Of a DNA stretch of 64,000 bases, positions 2,484 through 59,972 are shown in pieces. The DNA lies in the NCBI GenBank assembly GCA_037200965.1, contig JBBCGK010000001.1, positions 672,001-736,000 on the forward strand. The letters are read 5' to 3'. The stretch is from a bacterium (GTDB taxonomy: Bacteria > Patescibacteriota > Minisyncoccia > Phycocordibacterales > Phycocordibacteraceae). The position numbers and the translations under genes were made by a program. The notes under the pieces are model-generated. The model was not told where the DNA came from, made no database searches, and saw nothing but the letters and a program-made list of their open reading frames with translations. Positions within the stretch are counted from its first letter, which is position 1. The number at the start of each line of letters is the position of its first letter.

Positions 2484-2511
2484 CCCCGCAAAGCTTGGTT
2501 GCTTTGCGGGG
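2484..2511 (-). terminator. putative intrinsic terminator of the minus-strand two-gene operon (11-bp stem CCCCGCAAAGC/GCTTTGCGGGG, loop TTGGTT)
   Basis: Hairpin ~45 nt downstream (minus-strand sense) of the stop at 2557, followed on the minus strand by UUUCCUUU. Confidence 0.5.
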
Positions 2512-2556
2512 CTCGACCGGAGGTCGATTTTTCAAACAAGGCTTAGTATGTCCGGT

Positions 2557-3348
2557 TCAGGTTTTGGGGTCGATGCTCATCGCGCGCGGTATCGATTTCC
2601 GTTGCCAGTTGTCGATTTTTCGCCTATCAGAACTCCTGCCGATTATGTATAAGACGAGTGAGATGATGCATACGGCCACGCCCGGGCCGAAGGAACCGAT
2701 GTCCAAAGCCTCCCCGGCCCACACACACAGGGCAAGGTATATGAAGCCCGTAGCACCGAGCACGTAGCTGACAGCCGTTAAACCGTTGCTCTCGCTCTCT
2801 TTGCGCCGATACGAGGTTAACAGGGATTCGGCGATCGGGAGTTCGCTTCCCGGTCCTTCATCCCACGCGGCAAGAGGATATACCCGGCCATCGTGAGCTC
2901 GGCCCACGAGCAGGCTCGGCCCGCTCGTGCCGAATGCGCCGGACTCATACTTGGGATACTCGGGAAGAGACTGACTGATCCAGACCTCGATGTCGGCGAA
3001 GCAGTCCAGCCAATTTACCCATTCCAGACCTTCGAGTACTTTGCGGGGGAATTTTTGCCCGTACCATGCTCGATAGGTCGTGCTGTAGGCATAACCATGG
3101 TACGTGTTCACAGTGCGCACTTTGCGGACACACTGCCACCCTTTCTGAGCCGAGAATTTCCCGGGAAGAGAGCATCTCCACTGGCTCAGGGAATTGGGGT
3201 CGAAGGGTTCGAGAAGCGGAACATGCCTACGAATTTCTTCGATCCGGTTAAGCCGAGGCAGCGCCATGAGTGCGTTCCTCGCATCCGCGTTCAGCGTCCG
3301 TCCGTAGGCGGCGACTGCTTCGATTCTTCGGGATTGGTATTCAGCCAT
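2557..3348 (-). CDS. hypothetical protein (~263 aa) with a C-terminal pair of transmembrane helices; no recognisable domain
   Basis: Internal ATG (MAEYQ...) is preceded by AAGGAGGA and overlaps the upstream stop as TGATG, indicating translational coupling. A hydrophobic hairpin (LTAVSYVLGATGFIYLALCVWAG...GVAVCIISLVLYIIG) lies near the C-terminus. Confidence 0.6.
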   Translation of the reverse strand: MAEYQSRRIEAVAAYGRTLNADARNALMALPRLNRIEEIRRHVPLLEPFDPNSLSQWRCSLPGKFSAQKGWQCVRKVRTVNTYHGYAYSTTYRAWYGQKFPRKVLEGLEWVNWLDCFADIEVWISQSLPEYPKYESGAFGTSGPSLLVGRAHDGRVYPLAAWDEGPGSELPIAESLLTSYRRKESESNGLTAVSYVLGATGFIYLALCVWAGEALDIGSFGPGVAVCIISLVLYIIGRSSDRRKIDNWQRKSIPRAMSIDPKT

Positions 3349-3956
3349 CACACGTCCTCCTTGCTCGGAGCCGCGACGAACGCGACCCAGTTGTGCCACG
3401 AGATTTCGGTCGGGACGGAGCCCTGCGAATTCTTGAGGCTGCAGAGGGAGGAATAGAAGTAGTTGATGAGGCCGGCCGGATTGCCGTTGAGCGGTTCCGT
3501 GACGAACGCCACGAAGCTGCCGTCGGGTATGCGCGGGTCGTGCCCGAGATCGTCCGCGAGCCGCGGGCGCTCTGCGAACAATGCGTCTCGATACTCGACC
3601 GGTGCGGGAACGAGGCTGGCCTTCTGGCCGTATTCCTCGATCTGCCCGGGCCTGAGCCGACCGTTTTTGCCCGAATCGCCGAAGCGGACGAGCATGAGGG
3701 TTTTGTCCTCACCGCCGATCGCGATCCTCACCGCGCAGGCCTTGCCGCCTTTCGGCGGGTCGATCCGCGCCGTGGTCGCGATCTCGCTATAGAGCCCGGA
3801 GAGCTCTGCGAGAACACGCTCAAGCCTGCTGCTATGCGCGGGCTTGACCACCGCGGCGAGCAGCTCATTCAGGTCTGCGCCGGTTTGCCCGCGAACGAGC
3901 TCGCCGATCTGACCGAGCGCCCCGAAGAGCACCGTGGCCGTGACAGGTTTTGGCAT
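3348..3956 (-). CDS. hypothetical protein (202 aa), no recognisable domain; first gene of the coupled pair
   Basis: Start ATG is preceded by GAAAGGAAG. Its stop overlaps the start of the downstream gene by 1 nt (ATGA-type overlap). Confidence 0.6.
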   Translation of the reverse strand: MPKPVTATVLFGALGQIGELVRGQTGADLNELLAAVVKPAHSSRLERVLAELSGLYSEIATTARIDPPKGGKACAVRIAIGGEDKTLMLVRFGDSGKNGRLRPGQIEEYGQKASLVPAPVEYRDALFAERPRLADDLGHDPRIPDGSFVAFVTEPLNGNPAGLINYFYSSLCSLKNSQGSVPTEISWHNWVAFVAAPSKEDV

Positions 3957-40028: not shown

Positions 40029-40154
40029 CCCGCCGGTAGGGGTGGAAGAGAAGTCCGGAATTTCTGAGAAGTTTCTGCAGAAAGTTAGAACCCCCAATCT
40101 GTTAAGACGCGCCAACACGAATGGTTACTTAACTCGGCCTTTCGTGAAATGATG

Positions 40155-40566
40155 TGGAGGTGGGGAGGTTGAACTCCCGTCCGACCTGCGCTTGAGAGCG
40201 AGTCTACGGCGCGTAGTTCCGATTAGGGTTTAAGAGAGGATGCGAGGAAACGGAACGAAACCATTCCCCTCCGATCCCGTTATCTAAGCCGCGGGCCGGG
40301 AGAGCCGCGAACCGATCGCACAGAAGATTCCGCCCGCTGGCCCGGCTGTGCGCACCCGGGACCAGGGACGTCGCTTAGGCGAGGTGAGCCGAAGCTCGAA
40401 CCTTATGCGTAAGCGAACGCGAAGTTCCCTGCGGTAAAGTAAGGAGACTTCACGCCTACAACAGTTTTGTTTGCAGGTAGAGTTTCCCGCCAGATTAAAG
40501 TGATGGGCGGGAGTGCACTGCGCCGCACGTCTCTCAAGGTACAGGCCGTCAAAGCCGGTCACCCCC
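40155..40566 (-). ncRNA. ssrA: tmRNA (ssrA)
   Basis: The minus strand begins GGGGGUGACCGGCUUUGACGG, matching the tmRNA 5' consensus GGGGxUGAxxxGGxUUCGACGG. It ends GGACGGGAGUUCAACCUCCCCACCUCCA, matching E. coli ...GGACGCGGGUUCAACUCCCGCCAGCUCCA. The acceptor stem GGGGGUG/CACCUCC pairs. An internal ORF GCA AAC AAA ... GCA UAA encodes the tag ANKTVVGVKSPYFTAGNFAFAYA. It lies directly downstream of smpB. Confidence 0.7.
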
Positions 40567-44383: not shown

Positions 44384-44455
44384 CCACCCATAGCTCAATG
44401 GTAGAGCGATCGACTTATATTCGATTGGCTCCAGGTTCGAGTCCTGGTGGGTGGA
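44384..44455 (+). tRNA. tRNA-Ile with anticodon UAU (reads AUA)
   Basis: Manually folded: acceptor CCACCCA/TGGGTGG, D-arm GCTC-AATGGTA-GAGC, anticodon stem ATCGA/TCGAT with loop CTTATAT (U33, anticodon TAT, A37), T-arm CCAGG-TTCGAGT-CCTGG, discriminator A. 72 nt. Confidence 0.6.
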
Positions 44456-45280
44456 CTACCGAGGGAATATATCAACGAGTTCGCCCGAACTATAAAAGTC
44501 CGCGGCAAGACCGCCGAAGCTATACGAAACACCGAGAATATCGATGGCCGCGCCGCCTACCTGCGGATTCGCGTTCGGGGTCGAATGCGCGAAGCCGATG
44601 TTGTAAAGCGTCGAGACGACCGCGGGGTTTCCTTCGATAGGGAAGCCCGCCTTCCTCCACTGCGCTTCCACCTCCTTTATATAGAGTCCCGCATAGAGAT
44701 AGCTCCAATAGTGGTCGTGCTGGTCGGTCATGCGCGCGAAGCGTTCGCTTTCTACGTCGGTCGTCCGGAAGTCGAGCGCGTGCCCGAACTCAGGCCCCGG
44801 ATAGTACGGCGAGGCCGGATCCTTCAGATTATTCTCCACTTGGATCGCCGTGTCTTCTTTCATCCCCATCACGCCCCAGGAAAACTGTGTCTGAGAACCC
44901 AGGATCTTGAGCGGATAGAAGAATTGCTTATAAAACTCCCGTTCCGTGAAGAAAAGCCGCAGCTGTTCGGCGACCAAATTCGCGGCGATGAGCCGCGCGG
45001 GAACGCCCGAGTCGGCAGCCGCCCGGTCGAGCGCCGCGGTATCTTTCCGAAGCGCCGCCTCGAGCACCTGCCATTCTTCGGTCTTCTGCCAGGGCGTGCC
45101 ACGCGGATCGCTAGGCGCGAAGTCGGTCGATGTCGCGGAACCGATGAACGCTTCGCGCTGGAGGTCGACGATGCCGCTCGTGTTGGTGAGTCCGAACCGG
45201 ACCGCGAAGTATCCGACGACGAGGAAGAAGCCGATCGCGGCGAATATATAAATGACGATCGAGACGACTTTCTTAAGCAT
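44456..45280 (-). CDS. hypothetical membrane-anchored protein (274 aa)
   Basis: N-terminal TM (VVSIVIYIFAAIGFFLVVGYFAV) followed by a large soluble domain. Confidence 0.5.
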   Translation of the reverse strand: MLKKVVSIVIYIFAAIGFFLVVGYFAVRFGLTNTSGIVDLQREAFIGSATSTDFAPSDPRGTPWQKTEEWQVLEAALRKDTAALDRAAADSGVPARLIAANLVAEQLRLFFTEREFYKQFFYPLKILGSQTQFSWGVMGMKEDTAIQVENNLKDPASPYYPGPEFGHALDFRTTDVESERFARMTDQHDHYWSYLYAGLYIKEVEAQWRKAGFPIEGNPAVVSTLYNIGFAHSTPNANPQVGGAAIDILGVSYSFGGLAADFYSSGELVDIFPR

Positions 45281-45392
45281 GTACGTGCAGCCTACCGTCC
45301 CCGTTCCGTTGTGTAAATGAAGGGGCGCTTGACAGGAGAGACGGGATGGTATGAGATACGGGCAGATGATTGTTTAAAGGAGGGAATTCGCC

Positions 45393-54011: not shown

Positions 54012-54101
54012 GGAGACGTGGCTGAGTGGTCGAAAGTACCTCACTGCTAACGAGGCAGGGATTAACGTCCCTCGAGGGTTCGAATCCCTCCGTCTCCGCC
54101 A
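54012..54101 (+). tRNA. tRNA-Ser(GCU), class II with a long variable arm and an encoded CCA
   Basis: GGAGACG acceptor, GCTGAGTGGTCGAAAGT D-arm, anticodon loop CTGCTAA, long variable arm, GGGTTCGAATCCC T-arm, CGTCTCC-G-CCA. Confidence 0.85.
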
Positions 54102-54155
54102 GATGTCCAAATTCGAACCCAAGCAGAATAAGGGTATTTGGACTAAGATAATGAC

Positions 54156-55250
54156 ATGGCAACCAAAACGGCAAATTCAGGTCTTCATCAGGCCAAAACT
54201 GCCAAAAAGGACGAGTTTTATACCCAACTCGTTGATATTGAAAAAGAGCTGAAACACTACAAGGACCAATTTCGTGGCAAGGTGATTTTTCTGAATTGTG
54301 ACGATCCGTACGAAAGCAACTTCTTCAAGTATTTCGCTGGTAATTTCAATGCTCTCGGATTAAAGCAGCTTATTGCCACGAGCTACAAGCGATCGCCTAT
54401 TGCCAACACCCAATTAGGACTCTTTACCGATGGTGAGGTAGTGTCCGCAACTAAAGGCCGCCCAAAAGTGACTGCCAACAAATTCGTTATTAACGAAGTT
54501 GATGACATAAATGGTGACGGTTCTTTTGACTTGCGTGATATTGCGGAGCAGCTTAAAGCTAATAAAAATAACGAATGGACTCCATTAGACGGCGAAGGAG
54601 ATTTTCGGAGTCCGGAGAGCGTAGAACTGCTCAAGCAAGCTGATATTGTGGTGACAAACCCGCCCTTCTCGCTTTTCGGCGAGTATATTGATCAACTTGT
54701 TCAATACCAGAAAAAGTTTCTGATATTAGGAAATCAGAACGCTATTAAATATAAAAATGTCTTCAAGCTTATAAAGGAGAATAGGATGTGGCTAGGCTAT
54801 GACAATGGAGGAACGAAATGGTTCCAGGTGCCGGATGACTATGATATACAAACCGAATCAAGAATCAAAATAGAAAACGGTGTGAAATATTTTAGTATGG
54901 GCAGCATTGTGTGGTTTACAAATCTTGACACAACGAAGCGTCACATAGATTTCACAATGTACAAAAAATACAAACCCGAAGCATATTCAAAGTACGATAA
55001 TTACGACGCGATCGAGGTTTCTAGGGTGGTAGAAATACCAATGGACTATGGCGGCGAAATGGGAGTTCCGATTACCTTTTTAGATAAATATAATCCTGAC
55101 CAATTTGAGATTATTGATCTGCTAAACCGATACACCTTGTTTGACTCTCAGCAAACGAACGAAGATGTCAGACGAAGGCACTCCCACACTTGTAATATCA
55201 ATGGCAAGGCCGTATTTTCTCGAATTTTAATAAAGAACAAGCAAATTTGA
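54156..55250 (+). CDS. N6-adenine DNA methyltransferase of the EcoRI-methylase family
   Basis: N-terminal KKDEFYTQLVDIEKELKHYKDQFRGKVIFLNCDDPYESNFFKYFA is typical of the EcoRI_methylase family; catalytic IVVTNPPFS motif. AT-rich. Confidence 0.65.
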   Translation: MATKTANSGLHQAKTAKKDEFYTQLVDIEKELKHYKDQFRGKVIFLNCDDPYESNFFKYFAGNFNALGLKQLIATSYKRSPIANTQLGLFTDGEVVSATKGRPKVTANKFVINEVDDINGDGSFDLRDIAEQLKANKNNEWTPLDGEGDFRSPESVELLKQADIVVTNPPFSLFGEYIDQLVQYQKKFLILGNQNAIKYKNVFKLIKENRMWLGYDNGGTKWFQVPDDYDIQTESRIKIENGVKYFSMGSIVWFTNLDTTKRHIDFTMYKKYKPEAYSKYDNYDAIEVSRVVEIPMDYGGEMGVPITFLDKYNPDQFEIIDLLNRYTLFDSQQTNEDVRRRHSHTCNINGKAVFSRILIKNKQI

Positions 55251-56362
55251 AAATAATTATGAAAATCGAGCTAAATAAGGTTTCGGTCCGTGAAGTGGTG
55301 GCAGAATATAAAGACAGCGCTGAGGAGGGTGTTGTGGCCTATGACGGTAAGCTCGATGTGCGCCCAAAGTATCAGCGAGAATTCGTATATAAAGACAAAC
55401 AACGCGATGCCGTTATTGATACTGTCAGAAAAGGGTTTCCACTTAACGTGATGTATTGGGTAAAGACCGACGAAGGAAATTTTGAAGTATTGGACGGGCA
55501 GCAGAGAACAATCAGTCTCGGTCAGTATGTAAACGGTGACTTCTCTGTTGATTTCAACGGTCGTCTGGCTATGTTCCACAACCTTACCAAAGAAGAGCAG
55601 GAGCAGATTCTGAACTATGAACTGATGATTTATTTCTGCGAAGGAAACGATAAGGAAAAGCTCGATTGGTTCAAGATCATCAATATTGGCGGTGAGCGTC
55701 TAACCGATCAGGAGTTACGCAATGCTGTCTATACCGGTCCGTGGCTTTCTGATGCCAAGCTCAAATTCAGTAAATCAAACTGTGCGGCATACCTCCTCGC
55801 AAACGATGGCGGTGCGCTGCTCAAGGGCTCTCCAATTCGGCAAGAATACTTGGAAACTGCGATCTCATGGATAAATAACGGGGATGTGGCGGGCTACATG
55901 GCAAAACACCAGCACGATGAGAATGCGGAAGAATTATGGAAGTACTTCCAAAGTGTTATTGAGTGGGTACGCAGGACCTTCCCAAACTACCGCAAAGAAA
56001 TGGCGAGCGTAAATTGGGGGGAACTATATAACGAATACAAAGACAAAAAACTCGACGACACAAAACTAGAAGAGGAAATCGCACGATTGATGCAAGACGA
56101 AGATGTAACGAAGAAATCCGGTATTTACCCTTATGTCCTTACGGGCGAGGAACATCACCTTTCAATCCGTGCGTTTAACGACAATATGAAGCGGGAGGCG
56201 TATGAGCGCCAGAAAGGTATCTGTGTGAAATGCGGGAAGAAGTTTGAGATCGAGGAAATGGAAGCCGACCACATTACACCGTGGCACCAGGGAGGAAAAA
56301 CAAAAGCCGAAAATTGCCAGATGCTATGTAAAGACGATAACCGGAGAAAATCTGGAAAATGA
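55247..56362 (+). CDS. DUF262 (ParB/Srx-like, DGQQR motif) N-domain fused to a C-terminal HNH endonuclease
   Basis: VLDGQQRTISL is the DUF262 hallmark. C-terminal CVKCGKKFEIEEMEADHITPWHQGGKTKAENCQMLCKDDNRRK is an HNH/zinc-finger nuclease motif. Its start overlaps the MTase stop (ATGA). Confidence 0.7.
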   Translation: MKIIMKIELNKVSVREVVAEYKDSAEEGVVAYDGKLDVRPKYQREFVYKDKQRDAVIDTVRKGFPLNVMYWVKTDEGNFEVLDGQQRTISLGQYVNGDFSVDFNGRLAMFHNLTKEEQEQILNYELMIYFCEGNDKEKLDWFKIINIGGERLTDQELRNAVYTGPWLSDAKLKFSKSNCAAYLLANDGGALLKGSPIRQEYLETAISWINNGDVAGYMAKHQHDENAEELWKYFQSVIEWVRRTFPNYRKEMASVNWGELYNEYKDKKLDDTKLEEEIARLMQDEDVTKKSGIYPYVLTGEEHHLSIRAFNDNMKREAYERQKGICVKCGKKFEIEEMEADHITPWHQGGKTKAENCQMLCKDDNRRKSGK

Positions 56363-56997
56363 TAATGAAACAAGGAGATCTCCATATCTGGGTAAGAAAA
56401 TTACTCCAACAGCTTCGTACCCAAACCGATTCAAAAGAAGATTTATATACAAATATTCTTCTCTGGGCACACGATAAGCAAGAGTCTGGATTCTCATGGG
56501 AGGAAATGAGATCAAAGTTCTCACTGAATGCAGAACAAGAACATTGGGTTAGGAATATTTTCCTAACTACTTCAGATGGAGATAGGAAATTCTTTGAACA
56601 TTTACGGAACGATGATTCCGTATCACCGAATATTTATTACTACGCTTTAAATGAAAAAGGGATCACAGCGGCAATAAACTACAAGGGCTTGCGACATGCT
56701 GAAAAGAGCAGCACCCAAGCGTTATGGGTCGCAAGTATATCTATTTTTCTGGCAGCTATCGGTTTGTTTTTTACAGTTAAACAAACGAATTTGGCCGAGA
56801 CCCAAAGTATCTCGGAAAGGATAAATCAAGCAAGGAGTATACAATCAGCGCTTGAATTCTGTCAGCAGAATCCTGATTCTCAAGATTCTGGTCTCTATGA
56901 GATCTCGACTGGTAAATCTGCTTCATGTCCTCAAGTAGTGCGTAACTATTCCTCTACCTCCTCACTGTTGGATAGAATCAAAAGTCTGTTTAAGTAA
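56359..56997 (+). CDS. hypothetical protein with one central TM helix; third gene of the operon
   Basis: Its start overlaps the previous stop (ATGA), and the AT-rich composition matches the two upstream genes. Confidence 0.4.
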   Translation: MIMKQGDLHIWVRKLLQQLRTQTDSKEDLYTNILLWAHDKQESGFSWEEMRSKFSLNAEQEHWVRNIFLTTSDGDRKFFEHLRNDDSVSPNIYYYALNEKGITAAINYKGLRHAEKSSTQALWVASISIFLAAIGLFFTVKQTNLAETQSISERINQARSIQSALEFCQQNPDSQDSGLYEISTGKSASCPQVVRNYSSTSSLLDRIKSLFK

Positions 56998-57260
56998 CTG
57001 GAGAATTCGGATTTATTCTATTGAATAATCGATCGCACTCTTTCTTTTAGACGATTTAGGCTGTGGCACCTCAAACCACTCCGGATGAGCTTTATATATA
57101 GCCCTCAATTCCTGTATACTTTTATCAAGTTTCCCGAAGGTAAGCCGTGTTTTTGGTTCGAATTTCGGGACACCGCCTCCGCATCTAACAGCTAGCACCA
57201 GGAACCTCGGGTCTAGCTGGTGTCTAAAAACATCCGGTACTTTCTCTTACTTGTTCAATA

Positions 57261-57296
57261 TAAAAAGGACGGGCCGGAACTGTAGAAGTTCCGGCC
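57261..57296 (-). terminator. intrinsic terminator on the minus strand (GGGCCGGAAC tgtagaa GTTCCGGCCC; the A-run on plus gives a U-run on minus)
   Basis: 10-bp perfect stem with a flanking A5. Confidence 0.45.
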
Positions 57297-57883
57297 CATG
57301 TACTGTGTTCCCGTATTGAGTTTTGTATATTGCTTGATCAGGTGGTCCTACCTGTTGCAGGCGTGAGGAGAGACTTACTCTCCTCACGTTTATAACCTGC
57401 AGGACTTATAGGTCGTCCATACACCATGCGCACATCGACACATGGCTCAACGCTTCAGTCAGGCGTCCGACGGAAGGGGCATGAAACTCATAGGGAGTCA
57501 TATGCACGTCCTTCCATTGAAGTTTCGACGCTATTCCAAAACATTGGTAGCCGTCGCTTTCGCGGTCTGGGTCTTCGAGGTTCTGAACTTCAGAATCCCA
57601 ACTCTGGAAGCCGAGAGCTCCCGCGTCTTTATCTCTAAGATTGTCATCGACAACCTTAAAAATGCCCGCGGATAATTCTTCCACGAGTAGCCACGACCTT
57701 TGTGACAACCGTACGCCCGCAAGGGCGTTTATACGGCCTCCGAGAGAGGACGCATGGTCGGCATGGACGTATATCCGGTGCCGACGGACAAATAGCAATC
57801 TGAACAACTGCTCAACTCCTCTGTTAGATTTTCAGGGAACACAGCGCCTAAAGTGTAACAGTGTACATAACATATGTCAATAC

Positions 57884-58876
57884 CCGGGCTTGAATCCGCT
57901 CCTGAAACGCAACACCTGACGTAGGCTCGGTGGATGAGCCATCACCACCTTTCGCGCGGCGAGCGGGTCGCGCTTGCTGCGTTTCTCCGGACAGGAAAGA
58001 GCCGGGCCGAATGCGCCCGTCTTCTTGGCGTCCACCGCTCGACCATCTCGCGGGAACTGCGGCGCGGCGGTACCGAATACAAGGCGGTCGCCGCAGACAA
58101 GGAAGCCGCACGGCTGCGGAGAGAATCAAAACAACGAGCGCGGAAGATCGAGAACGACCATTCACTCGAACGAGAAATCGTTCGACTCCTGAAGAAGGGA
58201 CACTCTCCCGAACAGGTATCAGAAGAGGTGCGGTTCGTCTCGGACGACGCCATATACGATTGGATTGAACGTTCCCGAAAAGATCTCGCGGTACTCCTGC
58301 CCCAGCGCGGCAAGGTGCGCCGCCGGTACGGGAAGAATACGGGCGCGGTCCAAGGATGGACGAAATCCGTACGCAGTATCGCAGAGCGACCGAAGGCGGC
58401 GAACGACCGCTCCCGCATCGGCGACTGGGAAGGAGATACGGTCGCCGGACGGGATCGCGCCCGTCTGCTCGTGCATGTCGACCGGAAGAGCCGGTTCATC
58501 CTGGCCACGATCACGGCAAACGGGACTGCCGATACGATCCATGCCGCTGCGGGAGCCTCGTTCAAGGGACTTCCCGTTCGAACCATCACGTATGACCGCG
58601 GCAGCGAGTTCGCTCTCTGGCGCATGATTGAGCGCGATACCGGCGCAACCGTGTACTTCGCGAACGCGCATCATCCGTGGGAACGGGGCACGAGCGAGAA
58701 CTCGAACGGCCTCCTGCGGCGGTTCTTTCCGAAAGGAACGCCGATCGGCGAGAAGCTCCAGCGGGACGTTGACCGGGCCGTGCGGCTCATCAATCATCGG
58801 CCGAGGAAATGTCTCGGCTGGAAGACGCCCTGCCGCGTGTTTGGCCGCTGTTGCGTTTCAGGCTAGGATTCAAGCC
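57884..58876 (+). mobile_element. intact IS30-family insertion sequence (~990 bp) with ~30-bp imperfect terminal inverted repeats
   Basis: Left IR GGGCTTGAATCCGCTCCTGAAACGCAACAC at 57886-57915; right IR (reverse complement TGGCTTGAATCCTAGCCTGAAACGCAACAG) at 58845-58874. A single transposase ORF lies between them, and its stop falls inside the right IR. Confidence 0.75.
57934..58866 (+). CDS. IS30-family DDE transposase
   Basis: 310 aa; N-terminal HTH (LGVHRSTISRELRRG) and DDE region (GDWEGDTV ... TITYDRGSEF ... HPWERGTSENSNGLLRRFFPKGT). Confidence 0.85.
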   Translation: MSHHHLSRGERVALAAFLRTGKSRAECARLLGVHRSTISRELRRGGTEYKAVAADKEAARLRRESKQRARKIENDHSLEREIVRLLKKGHSPEQVSEEVRFVSDDAIYDWIERSRKDLAVLLPQRGKVRRRYGKNTGAVQGWTKSVRSIAERPKAANDRSRIGDWEGDTVAGRDRARLLVHVDRKSRFILATITANGTADTIHAAAGASFKGLPVRTITYDRGSEFALWRMIERDTGATVYFANAHHPWERGTSENSNGLLRRFFPKGTPIGEKLQRDVDRAVRLINHRPRKCLGWKTPCRVFGRCCVSG

Positions 58877-58943
58877 ACCCTGTCGTGCGTTTGAGCTTCC
58901 AGTCCCATCTCTCCTAGAGAGACCGGGACGAGGAAGCCTCGCT

Positions 58944-59924: not shown

Positions 59925-59942
59925 CAAGAAGTCAGTTGTTGC

Positions 59943-59972
59943 GTTTCAGGCTCGAATTTAAGGGGAATAGTC
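59943..59972. repeat. solo IS30 terminal-inverted-repeat-like sequence (GTTGTTGCGTTTCAGGCTCGAATTTAAGG)
   Basis: Closely matches the right IR of the intact IS30 copy (GCTGTTGCGTTTCAGGCTAGGATTCAAGCC); no transposase adjacent. Confidence 0.45.

What the first reader, a model, noticed from the sequence alone, without database searches (positions are those of the whole stretch)
54012..57300. AT-rich island beside tRNA-Ser carrying an overlapping operon: EcoRI-family N6-A methyltransferase, DUF262(ParB-like)+HNH nuclease, small TM protein
Immediately after tRNA-Ser the composition drops sharply. Three genes with ATGA start/stop overlaps encode an N6-adenine MTase (EcoRI-methylase family, NPPF motif), a protein joining a DGQQR DUF262 domain to an HNH nuclease, and a small single-TM protein. 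DUF262 is best known from modification-dependent type IV enzymes (GmrSD family, SspE, BrxU), which normally lack a cognate methylase. A DUF262-HNH nuclease hard-wired to its own MTase suggests an unusual R-M-like or modification-sensing defense architecture. The third gene could be an accessory or effector component. The island is bounded on the right by an intact IS30.
Basis: partly seen in the sequence, partly recalled or inferred. Interest (0 to 1): 0.75.

Follow-up and report, generated by a model that had tools for sequence, protein, structure and literature searches.

The report
Known-type restriction-modification cassette beside tRNA-Ser
An AT-rich, horizontally acquired cassette in a candidate-phyla-radiation bacterium encodes a widespread, already catalogued restriction-modification pair (EcoRI-type methylase plus DUF262-HNH nuclease); the more unusual part is its third gene, a membrane-anchored DNA-binding protein that follows many different restriction systems in these bacteria.

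The parts
54012..54101 (+). tRNA-Ser(GCT), the left boundary of the AT-rich cassette. It is the host type: 100% identical to the tRNA of relative L042. It is inverted relative to nfi compared with six related genomes.
54102..57400 (.). Low-GC segment (0.39-0.47 against about 0.60 for the host), so horizontally acquired. No integrase and no att-type repeat were found.
54156..55250 (+). M.EcoRI-family N6-adenine DNA methyltransferase, 364 aa. NPPF catalytic motif at 54657-54668. About 46% identical to genuine M.EcoRI.
55259..56362 (+). DUF262 (GmrSD_N, ParB/Srx-like) + HNH endonuclease, 367 aa, the presumed restriction subunit. An alternative TTG start lies at 55247. YQREF at 55370-55384, DGQQR at 55493-55507, HNH core (CVKC...DH...N...N..K) at 56222-56350.
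56359..56997 (+). ORF3, 212 aa (210 aa if it starts at ATG 56365). N-terminal winged-helix domain, then a long helix holding one TM segment (about residues 121-141, window 56719-56781), then a C-terminal helix. Found only in Patescibacteria. Not part of the R-M family.
57269..57299 (-). Intrinsic-terminator-like hairpin (13-bp stem followed by a T run) on the minus strand. It closes the convergent 133-aa ORF and marks the right end of the AT-rich segment.
57406..57807 (-). 133-aa ORF of intermediate GC (0.52) with no family match. Status uncertain; it lies between the cassette and the IS.
57887..58876 (+). IS30-family insertion sequence with 28-nt terminal inverted repeats (57887-57914 and 58849-58876). 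The 310-aa transposase (57934-58866) has HTH_38 and rve domains.

Best explanation
The segment is a horizontally acquired cassette carrying a two-gene, type II-like restriction-modification module. The M.EcoRI-family methylase puts N6-methyl groups on adenines in a short recognition sequence on the host's own DNA. The DUF262-HNH protein is the matching endonuclease that cuts DNA lacking that mark. Its C-terminal HNH (beta-beta-alpha-metal) domain does the cutting. Its N-terminal ParB/sulfiredoxin-like DUF262 domain, with conserved YQR and DGQQR motifs, probably binds a nucleotide or DNA and gates the nuclease, as it does in GmrSD-type enzymes.

Shown here: the domain identities; conservation of the catalytic and signature residues across 38-84% identity; the near-obligate MTase-then-nuclease gene pair on plasmids, in a phage and in defence neighbourhoods; the full-length match to type II R-M profiles; the foreign base composition.

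Inferred: that methylation protects against the nuclease; that the site may resemble an AATT-core palindrome (only because the MTase is ~46% identical to M.EcoRI); and any NTP requirement.

The third gene encodes a membrane-anchored winged-helix protein. It is not needed by this R-M family. It came in with the cassette and belongs to a CPR-specific gene family that recurrently sits just downstream of unrelated R-M cassettes. Its role is unknown (a regulator, or a marker of a mobile islet).
For: - Profile matches: Pfam EcoRI_methylase E=3.8e-137; GmrSD_N E=2e-18; HNH E=2.4e-13. PADLOC MTase_II E=1.8e-122 and REase_II E=1.3e-146, covering 1-372 of 372.
- Pairing: the MTase lies directly upstream of the nuclease homologue in 12 of 13 other loci: L001, L002, L003, L022, L048 (frameshifted), L049, L050, L052, L053, L055, L086 (phage) and L087.
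- Conserved residues in alignment A3: P36, Y38-Q-R40, D79-G-Q-Q-R83, C322, D337-H338, N352, N361, K364.
- Genuine EcoRI system on pU90-3: its MTase is ~46% identical over the full length, but its nuclease is unrelated.
- Defence neighbours: Shedu and Abi, OLD+UvrD, Gabija-like, KAP NTPase. An HTH_3 controller-like gene lies upstream in L087-L089.
- Family size: 519 clusters at 50% identity with E<=1e-30.
- A single ORF, P0227, combines EcoRI_methylase, GmrSD_N and HNH.
- Foreign GC. Six related Paceibacterota genomes have no R-M at the tRNA-Ser/nfi site.
Against: - No experiment, methylome or REBASE entry could be consulted. No characterised prototype was found in the literature held.
- The PADLOC model may have been built from putative REBASE entries.
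- The nuclease is often more conserved than the methylase (63% vs 47% in L001; 84% vs 69% in L022). That is unusual for type II systems.
- One plasmid has an intact nuclease beside a frameshifted MTase (L048) and one has a solitary nuclease (L051). So the nuclease may not always be lethal without its partner.
- The conserved DGQQR motif suggests NTP dependence, which is not part of the type II definition.
- The nuclease model is only moderately confident (pLDDT 69; residues 141-226 below 50). Fold matches to ParB/Srx/BrxU and HNH proteins are weak, none at E<=1e-3.
- Palindrome depletion in the 59 kb of host sequence says nothing about the site.
Confidence: 0.8

Rival explanations
1. It is a three-component system in which ORF3 is a required accessory or effector of the DUF262-HNH/MTase pair.
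For: ORF3's start overlaps, or lies 3 nt after, the nuclease stop. ORF3 shares the cassette's low GC. ORF3 homologues sit within -13 to +60 nt of the last gene of other R-M cassettes.
Against: ORF3 is absent from all 13 other loci that carry the nuclease homologue. These include close CPR relatives at 81-84% identity, where an OLD-type or KAP NTPase gene follows instead. The ORF3 family has only 54 members, all Patescibacteria, against more than 8000 hits for the nuclease. ORF3 also occurs with no R-M nearby.
Confidence: 0.07
2. The nuclease is a modification-dependent (type IV, GmrSD/BrxU/SspE-like) enzyme, and the adjacent methylase does not protect against it. The MTase could be an orphan or regulatory methylase, or it could mark DNA for a different purpose.
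For: DUF262 is otherwise known from type IV enzymes (PMC12707154). There are weak PADLOC and fold hits to such proteins (mREase_IV E=0.0046; BrxU 7p9k). A solitary nuclease and a frameshifted MTase exist.
Against: The MTase and nuclease are adjacent and co-oriented, in the same order, in 12 of 13 other loci across phyla and in a phage. The C-terminal nuclease is a canonical PF01844 HNH, not DUF1524. The best PADLOC match by about 120 orders of magnitude is a type II REase model. A type IV enzyme tied to an active m6A methylase would endanger the host unless it ignored that mark.
Confidence: 0.06
3. The pair is mainly a selfish mobile or addiction module. The HNH nuclease would act like a homing or post-segregational-killing nuclease and give little phage defence.
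For: The pair sits on small plasmids, as a phage moron and in foreign islets. HNH subfamilies in REBASE include likely homing enzymes (PMC2441816). The nuclease is unusually well conserved.
Against: This is not exclusive with R-M function, since type II systems are classic addiction modules. Its neighbours are defence genes. No intein, intron or homing-site context was seen.
Confidence: 0.07

Closest known systems
EcoRI restriction-modification system (R.EcoRI / M.EcoRI; pU90-3 used here as the example)
   Same: The methylase belongs to the same Pfam family (PF13651) and is ~46% identical to M.EcoRI over its whole length, with the NPPF motif. Both are two-gene type II modules carried on mobile DNA.
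   Different: The nuclease is unrelated: DUF262+HNH here, against the R.EcoRI protein there. The gene order is reversed: M then R here, R then M in EcoRI. Whether the recognition site is GAATTC is unknown.
GmrSD / BrxU / SspE family (DUF262 + DUF1524 type IV or modification-sensing nucleases)
   Same: All have an N-terminal DUF262 (GmrSD_N) domain with the DGQQR-type signature, fused to a C-terminal His-metal-finger nuclease (PMC12707154).
   Different: The C-terminal domain here is a canonical PF01844 HNH, not DUF1524. The protein is shorter (367 aa against 580 aa for the BrxU chain 7p9k_A). It is nearly always paired with its own methylase, which those enzymes lack. Only a weak fold match to BrxU was found.
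HNH-type type II restriction enzymes (subfamilies such as KpnI, NlaIII, SphI, Hpy99I and PacI in Orlowski & Bujnicki 2008)
   Same: They have an HNH catalytic domain and a neighbouring methylase (PMC2441816).
   Different: The terms DUF262, ParB and COG1479 do not occur anywhere in the main text of that 2008 classification, which lists 14 HNH subfamilies. The N-terminal two thirds of this protein are specific to its own family.
Controller (C-protein) regulated type II R-M systems
   Same: In CPR relatives L087-L089 a 65-aa HTH_3 gene directly precedes the same MTase/nuclease pair, as C genes do.
   Different: The window copy has no such gene: only 54 nt separate the tRNA from the MTase start. 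ORF3 is a winged-helix, membrane-anchored protein placed downstream, unlike any known C protein.

Membership tests
Type II restriction-modification system | Separate, adjacent genes for a DNA methyltransferase and an endonuclease | tested here: met
   54156-55250 and 55259-56362 are co-directional with an 8-nt gap. The same pair is present in 12 of 13 other loci.
Type II restriction-modification system | Methyltransferase with intact catalytic motifs of a known DNA MTase family | tested here: met
   PF13651 full length, E=3.8e-137; NPPF at residues 168-171; ~46% identity to M.EcoRI.
Type II restriction-modification system | Endonuclease with an intact catalytic motif that matches a catalogued type II REase family | tested here: met
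   HNH residues D337-H338, N352 and N361 are invariant. PADLOC REase_II PDLC03418, E=1.3e-146, covers the whole profile. The REBASE prototype could not be named.
Type II restriction-modification system | Sequence-specific cleavage that is blocked by the cognate methylation, with no NTP requirement | not testable with these tools
   No biochemical or methylome data are available. The conserved DGQQR/YQR motifs raise the possibility of NTP dependence. Palindrome depletion was uninformative.
GmrSD / BrxU / SspE (type IV, DUF262+DUF1524) | N-terminal DUF262 domain with the DGQ(Q/H)R signature | tested here: met
   GmrSD_N E=2e-18; DGQQR at residues 79-83, invariant in A3.
GmrSD / BrxU / SspE (type IV, DUF262+DUF1524) | C-terminal DUF1524 nuclease domain | tested here: not met
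   The Pfam scan reports PF01844 HNH and PF14279 HNH_5 only. There is no DUF1524 hit at E<=0.01.
GmrSD / BrxU / SspE (type IV, DUF262+DUF1524) | Stand-alone enzyme with no cognate methyltransferase, acting on modified DNA | tested here: not met
   A methylase is encoded directly upstream here and in 12 of 13 other loci. Dependence on modification itself cannot be tested with these tools.
EcoRI R-M system proper | R.EcoRI-type endonuclease partner with R-then-M gene order | tested here: not met
   On pU90-3 'type-2 restriction enzyme EcoRI' precedes the MTase. Here the partner is a DUF262-HNH protein that follows the MTase.
tRNA-targeting integrative genomic island | Integrase gene and a direct repeat of the tRNA 3' end at the far boundary | tested here: not met
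   There is no integrase among the ORFs between 54.1 and 57.9 kb. The best match to the tRNA 3' end downstream of ORF3 is 9 nt, p~0.14, and matches are also non-significant in seven other loci.
IS30 family insertion sequence (right-hand neighbour) | HTH + DDE (rve) transposase flanked by terminal inverted repeats | tested here: met
   HTH_38 E=4e-11 and rve E=4e-9. The 28-nt inverted repeats are 89% complementary.

The most novel reading that the evidence does not exclude
ORF3 may define an undescribed, Patescibacteria-specific, membrane-anchored winged-helix protein that travels with R-M cassettes and is probably co-transcribed behind them. It lies directly downstream of eight different nuclease families: DUF262-HNH, Tsp45I, HincII, MutH-like, EcoO109I, MvaI/BcnI, DUF6996/6997 and a type III-like Mod/Res pair. 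It usually follows a tRNA gene and is always AT-rich whatever the host GC. It would then be either a generic R-M accessory or regulator of a new kind, or the hallmark gene of a family of small integrase-less R-M-carrying islets. Separately, the DUF262-HNH enzyme could be an NTP-gated restriction enzyme, a mechanistic hybrid between type II and GmrSD-type enzymes.
Probability: 0.35. Interest if true: 0.65.

Novelty: new member of a known kind. Interest (0 to 1): 0.35.

Why it matters
For the R-M pair itself, little changes. It is one more copy of a widespread, already catalogued module, and the exact proteins are already in public MAG annotations.

Two things are worth knowing.

First, this large family of restriction enzymes uses a DUF262 (ParB-like) domain. 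That domain is otherwise associated with modification-dependent enzymes, and no paper in the library searched describes the family's mechanism. A simple biochemical study could show whether these are NTP-gated type II enzymes.

Second, CPR bacteria rely heavily on R-M systems, and little is known about how those systems move between such small genomes (this background is my own knowledge, not checked here). A conserved, AT-rich, membrane-anchored DNA-binding gene that accompanies many unrelated R-M cassettes next to tRNA genes could be a handle on that question.

Tried and rejected
1. Naming the REBASE prototype. Seven full-text searches and eight papers were read. No paper describes an EcoRI-family MTase paired with a DUF262-HNH nuclease. 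The putative HNH subfamily LcaA2P in Orlowski & Bujnicki 2008 is a homing-endonuclease relative, not this family.
2. Inferring the recognition site from palindrome depletion in 59 kb of host sequence. GAATTC: 18 observed vs 23.3 expected. CAATTG: 0 vs 1.5. AATT: 98 vs 92.9. No signal and too little sequence.
3. Looking for att-type direct repeats of the tRNA 3' end downstream of ORF3. A 9-nt GGTTCGAAT match at 57155-57163 looked suggestive, but it is not significant (p~0.14), nor are matches in seven other loci.
4. I first read contigs L017 and L019 as R-M-free siblings of L016. The alignment showed that they simply begin inside the MTase gene, so I withdrew that reading. In the same way, L057 and L058 are the same locus as L056.
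5. The structure of the nuclease. The alignment allowed was shallow (65-100% identity). The model has pLDDT 69 with residues 141-226 unresolved. Foldseek found no hit at E<=1e-3, only weak ParB/Srx/BrxU and HNH matches. It adds nothing independent of Pfam.
6. The AFDB fold library was not available.
7. The sigma-70 promoter scan gives no plus-strand promoter upstream of the MTase. This is uninformative for a CPR organism.
8. ORF3 has no relative in viral contigs and no hit in Pfam, PHROGs, NCBIfam or PADLOC.
Full report
OBSERVATION. ARAGORN and Rfam place tRNA-Ser(GCT) at 54012-54101 on the + strand. In 400-nt windows GC falls from 0.60-0.65 to 0.385-0.47 between about 54100 and 57400, then recovers. 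Three co-directional ORFs fill the trough: 54156-55250 (364 aa), 55259-56362 (367 aa; a TTG at 55247 would add 4 residues) and 56359-56997 (212 aa). Their GC is 0.405, 0.456 and 0.393, against 0.61 for the neighbouring nfi gene and 0.60 for 40-53 kb.

Two details in the finding need correcting. First, the MTase stop (TGA 55248-55250) is followed 8 nt later by the ATG at 55259, which the 367-aa homologues use. So only the second junction is an ATGA overlap, and even there a second ATG at 56365 is the start used in the NCBI MAG annotation. Second, the IS30-like element spans 57887-58876, with 28-nt inverted repeats and a 310-aa HTH_38+rve transposase. It begins 890 bp after ORF3 ends. A strong minus-strand terminator (57299-57269) and a 133-aa minus-strand ORF of intermediate GC lie in between.

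WHAT THE GENES ARE. Gene 1 matches Pfam EcoRI_methylase over the whole profile (E=3.8e-137) and carries NPPF at residues 168-171. Gene 2 matches GmrSD_N/DUF262 (residues 38-162, E=2e-18) and HNH (326-369, E=2.4e-13). Its only solved-structure sequence relatives are HNH domains (4h9d, E=2e-5).

The decisive result is PADLOC-DB. The profile 'REase_II, Type II restriction enzyme' (PDLC03418) aligns to residues 5-371 over positions 1-372 of 372 with E=1.3e-146. 'MTase_II' (PDLC03297) matches gene 1 with E=1.8e-122. The next-best nuclease hits (NsnA 1e-27, PD-T4-2_A 2e-12, mREase_IV 5e-3) cover only one domain. PADLOC cites REBASE for R-M systems. Comparable R-M profile sets were built by clustering REBASE 'gold standard' proteins (PMC4176335). 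I could not establish which REBASE enzyme underlies PDLC03418, nor whether it has been characterised biochemically.

HOW GENERAL THE PAIR IS. The nuclease search stopped at its 8000-candidate limit at E<=1e-20. The 100% match comes from an NCBI MAG contig of 960 kb, and the nearest relatives (78-90% identity) are from Paceibacterota, Uhrbacteria, Ryanbacteria, Gracilibacteria and Peribacteria. An exhaustive search of 1.84 billion 50%-identity representatives found 519 clusters at E<=1e-30 and 2035 at E<=1e-10. A tblastn search of PLSDB found 43 plasmids with a full-length homologue.

I inspected 13 further loci:
- Bacillota: Macrococcoides (L001), E. dispar (L051), E. faecium (L055).
- Pseudomonadota: Aeromonas (L002), Thiomicrorhabdus (L049), Moraxella (L052).
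- Actinomycetota: Ruania (L003), Dietzia (L050), Rhodococcus (L053).
- Bacteroidota: Chryseobacterium (L048).
- Flavobacterium phage laban6-1 (L086).
- Two CPR genomes (L022, L087).

In 12 of them an EcoRI-family MTase lies immediately upstream in the same orientation. It is frameshifted in L048 and unannotated but intact in L049. Only the 8.6-kb optrA plasmid L051 lacks it.

Across 38-84% identity the nuclease keeps P36, Y38-Q-R40, D79-G-Q-Q-R83, C322, D337-H338, N352, N361 and K364, so both domains are under selection. Its neighbours are often defence genes: Shedu and Abi in Dietzia, an OLD-type ATPase with a UvrD helicase (Gabija-like) in L022, and a KAP NTPase in L087. L087 also has a 65-aa HTH_3 controller-like gene directly upstream of the MTase. 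One representative, P0227, is a single 688-aa ORF with EcoRI_methylase, GmrSD_N and HNH. That is either a natural fusion or a read-through artefact in a genome that reads UGA as a sense codon.

The genuine EcoRI system on E. coli plasmid pU90-3 has 'type-2 restriction enzyme EcoRI' followed by an MTase ~46% identical to ours over its full length. So this is an M.EcoRI homologue that has exchanged nuclease partner and gene order.

MECHANISM. The best-supported reading (confidence 0.8) is a classical protect-and-cut module. The MTase methylates adenine in a short site. The HNH domain of the partner cleaves unmethylated sites. The DUF262 domain, a ParB/sulfiredoxin-like fold that binds nucleotides in GmrSD-type enzymes (PMC12707154), probably gates or positions the nuclease. 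Only the domain identities, residue conservation and gene linkage are shown. Protection, specificity and NTP dependence are inferred.

Several points call for caution. The nuclease is frequently more conserved than the MTase (63% vs 47% in L001; 84% vs 69% in L022). There is one solitary nuclease and one with a frameshifted MTase. The AlphaFold model is moderate (pLDDT 69; residues 141-226 below 50), and Foldseek gave only weak hits to ParB/Noc/Srx/BrxU and to Gme-HNH/McrA/Cas9-HNH, none at E<=1e-3.

THE ISLAND AND ITS HOST. The flanking nfi gene has 64-75% identical relatives in Paceibacterota/Parcubacteria MAGs. Gene order to the left of the tRNA (window 42-53.9 kb) is conserved with six of them and stops at the tRNA. 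Those genomes have comF, then tRNA-Ser(GCT), then 0.1-2.5 kb of native-GC variable genes (a surface protein in L042; HIT and pilin-like genes in L043), then nfi. None has an R-M there.

The window's tRNA is 100% identical to that of L042, so it is the host's own. But it is inverted relative to nfi, tRNA-Ile(TAT) at 44384 is also in the opposite orientation to the relatives, and comF is missing from the window. A rearrangement has therefore occurred, perhaps involving the IS30 element. I found no integrase and no significant repeat of the tRNA 3' end. The same tRNA-Ser(GCT)-then-MTase arrangement occurs in the unrelated CPR locus L022.

ORF3 is absent from every other locus that carries the DUF262-HNH pair, so it is not a component of this R-M family. 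But among 22 distinct ORF3 loci with enough upstream sequence, nine have an R-M system directly upstream:
- this window;
- Tsp45I + N6_N4 MTase (L016; probably also L065, where only the MTase end is on the contig);
- HTH + HincII + N6_Mtase (L056/L063/L064, after tRNA-Leu);
- N6_N4 + MutH-like (L059, after tRNA-Ser(GGA));
- N6_N4 + EcoO109I (L060);
- T5orf172 + N6_N4 + DUF6996/6997 (L062);
- N6_N4 + MvaI/BcnI (L082);
- N6_N4 Mod + ResIII helicase (L077/L078).

A tenth locus (L070/L071, after tRNA-Ser(TGA)) keeps a 35-residue MTase remnant. In the clade at least 65% identical to ORF3, all eight loci are of this kind. The gap from the last cassette gene to the ORF3 start is -13 to +60 nt.

ORF3 homologues have 0.32-0.41 GC whether the surrounding genes are at 0.42 or 0.63. 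Where the host is GC-rich, ORF3 matches the cassette and not the backbone. The remaining loci mostly show a tRNA (Gln, Ser or Trp), then a short unknown ORF, then ORF3. One has a tyrosine integrase two genes upstream.

As a rough control, seven MTase queries gave no hit in 405 kb of nfi-anchored Paceibacterota sequence, against hits in 9 of 22 ORF3 loci (152 kb). The queries came from the ORF3 loci themselves, so this only shows that those MTase families are rare elsewhere. ORF3 has no relative in viral contigs.

I cannot tell whether ORF3 is a generic R-M accessory or regulator, the hallmark gene of small integrase-less islets, or the flank of an insertion hotspot. Its constant AT-richness, and its arrival here together with the cassette, argue against a purely resident flank gene.

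VERDICT. Novelty: a new member of a known kind. Interest is modest (0.35). It rests on two things: no paper in the searched library describes how DUF262-HNH restriction enzymes work, and ORF3 shows an unexplained association with diverse R-M cassettes.

Noticed in passing
window 56359-56997; loci L016, L056/L063/L064, L059, L060, L062, L065, L070/L071, L077/L078, L082: ORF3 homologues are Patescibacteria-only proteins with a winged-helix domain and a TM helix. They lie directly downstream of eight different R-M nuclease families, often after a tRNA gene. They are AT-rich (0.32-0.41 GC) whatever the host GC. R-M is present in 9 of 22 distinct loci, plus one remnant. In the clade at least 65% identical to ORF3, all eight loci are of this kind.
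   Followed up: yes
window 54012-54101 and 44384-44456, compared with L027, L028, L038, L042, L043, L044: tRNA-Ser(GCT) is inverted relative to nfi compared with six related genomes. tRNA-Ile(TAT) is inverted compared with the three relatives whose loci reach it (L027, L038, L042). The protein-coding gene order is conserved. comF, which precedes tRNA-Ser in the relatives inspected (L038, L042, L043), is not in the window. The gene at 44462-45298 has moved from beside nfi to beside tRNA-Ile.
   Followed up: partly
window 59931-59962: A third copy of the IS30 terminal inverted repeat (84-88% match to the ends at 57887-57920 and 58849-58874) lies about 1.06 kb to the right of the element. It could be a solo end or the remnant of a second copy, and may be linked to local rearrangement.
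   Followed up: no
window 57882-57885 and 58877-58880: The tetranucleotide ACCC occurs just outside both ends of the IS30-like element (1 nt from the left repeat, directly after the right repeat). It may be a target-site duplication.
   Followed up: no
P0227 (688 aa) and P0354 (515 aa), representatives: These are single ORFs combining EcoRI_methylase with GmrSD_N (and HNH in P0227). They are either natural MTase-nuclease fusions or read-through of a TGA stop in CPR genomes that use genetic code 25.
   Followed up: partly
L048 (Chryseobacterium plasmid) 1559-2501; L051 (Enterococcus dispar plasmid) 2501-3607: In L048 an intact nuclease homologue sits beside an MTase split over three reading frames. 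In L051 a solitary nuclease has its upstream region occupied by optrA. Either these nucleases are inactive, the host is protected in trans, or the nuclease is not lethal on its own.
   Followed up: partly
L001, L002, L022 against window 54156-56362: The nuclease is more conserved than its methylase in several pairs (63% vs 47%, 60% vs 45%, 84% vs 69%). This is the reverse of the usual pattern in type II systems.
   Followed up: partly
L016 1-30 and about 345-372: The contig starts with a tRNA 3' end. A degenerate second copy of that 3' end follows a 77-aa GIY-YIG gene, just before the Tsp45I-type R-M. It looks like nested insertions at one tRNA.
   Followed up: no
L022 7108-9847; L087 3680-3877 and 6115-9222; L050 3703-5031: The same R-M pair is followed by OLD-type ATPase and UvrD genes (Gabija-like), by a 1035-aa KAP NTPase, or by a Shedu nuclease in other genomes. 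In L087 an HTH_3 controller-like gene precedes it.
   Followed up: partly
window 40154-40566: The tmRNA gene has an unusual predicted tag peptide (GPAGGIFCAIGSRLSRPAA).
   Followed up: no
L083 3659-4564 and L085 3665-4561: A tyrosine-recombinase (Phage_integrase) gene lies two genes upstream of a distant ORF3 homologue, together with SNase and DUF488 genes. This is the only ORF3 locus seen with a recognisable recombinase.
   Followed up: no
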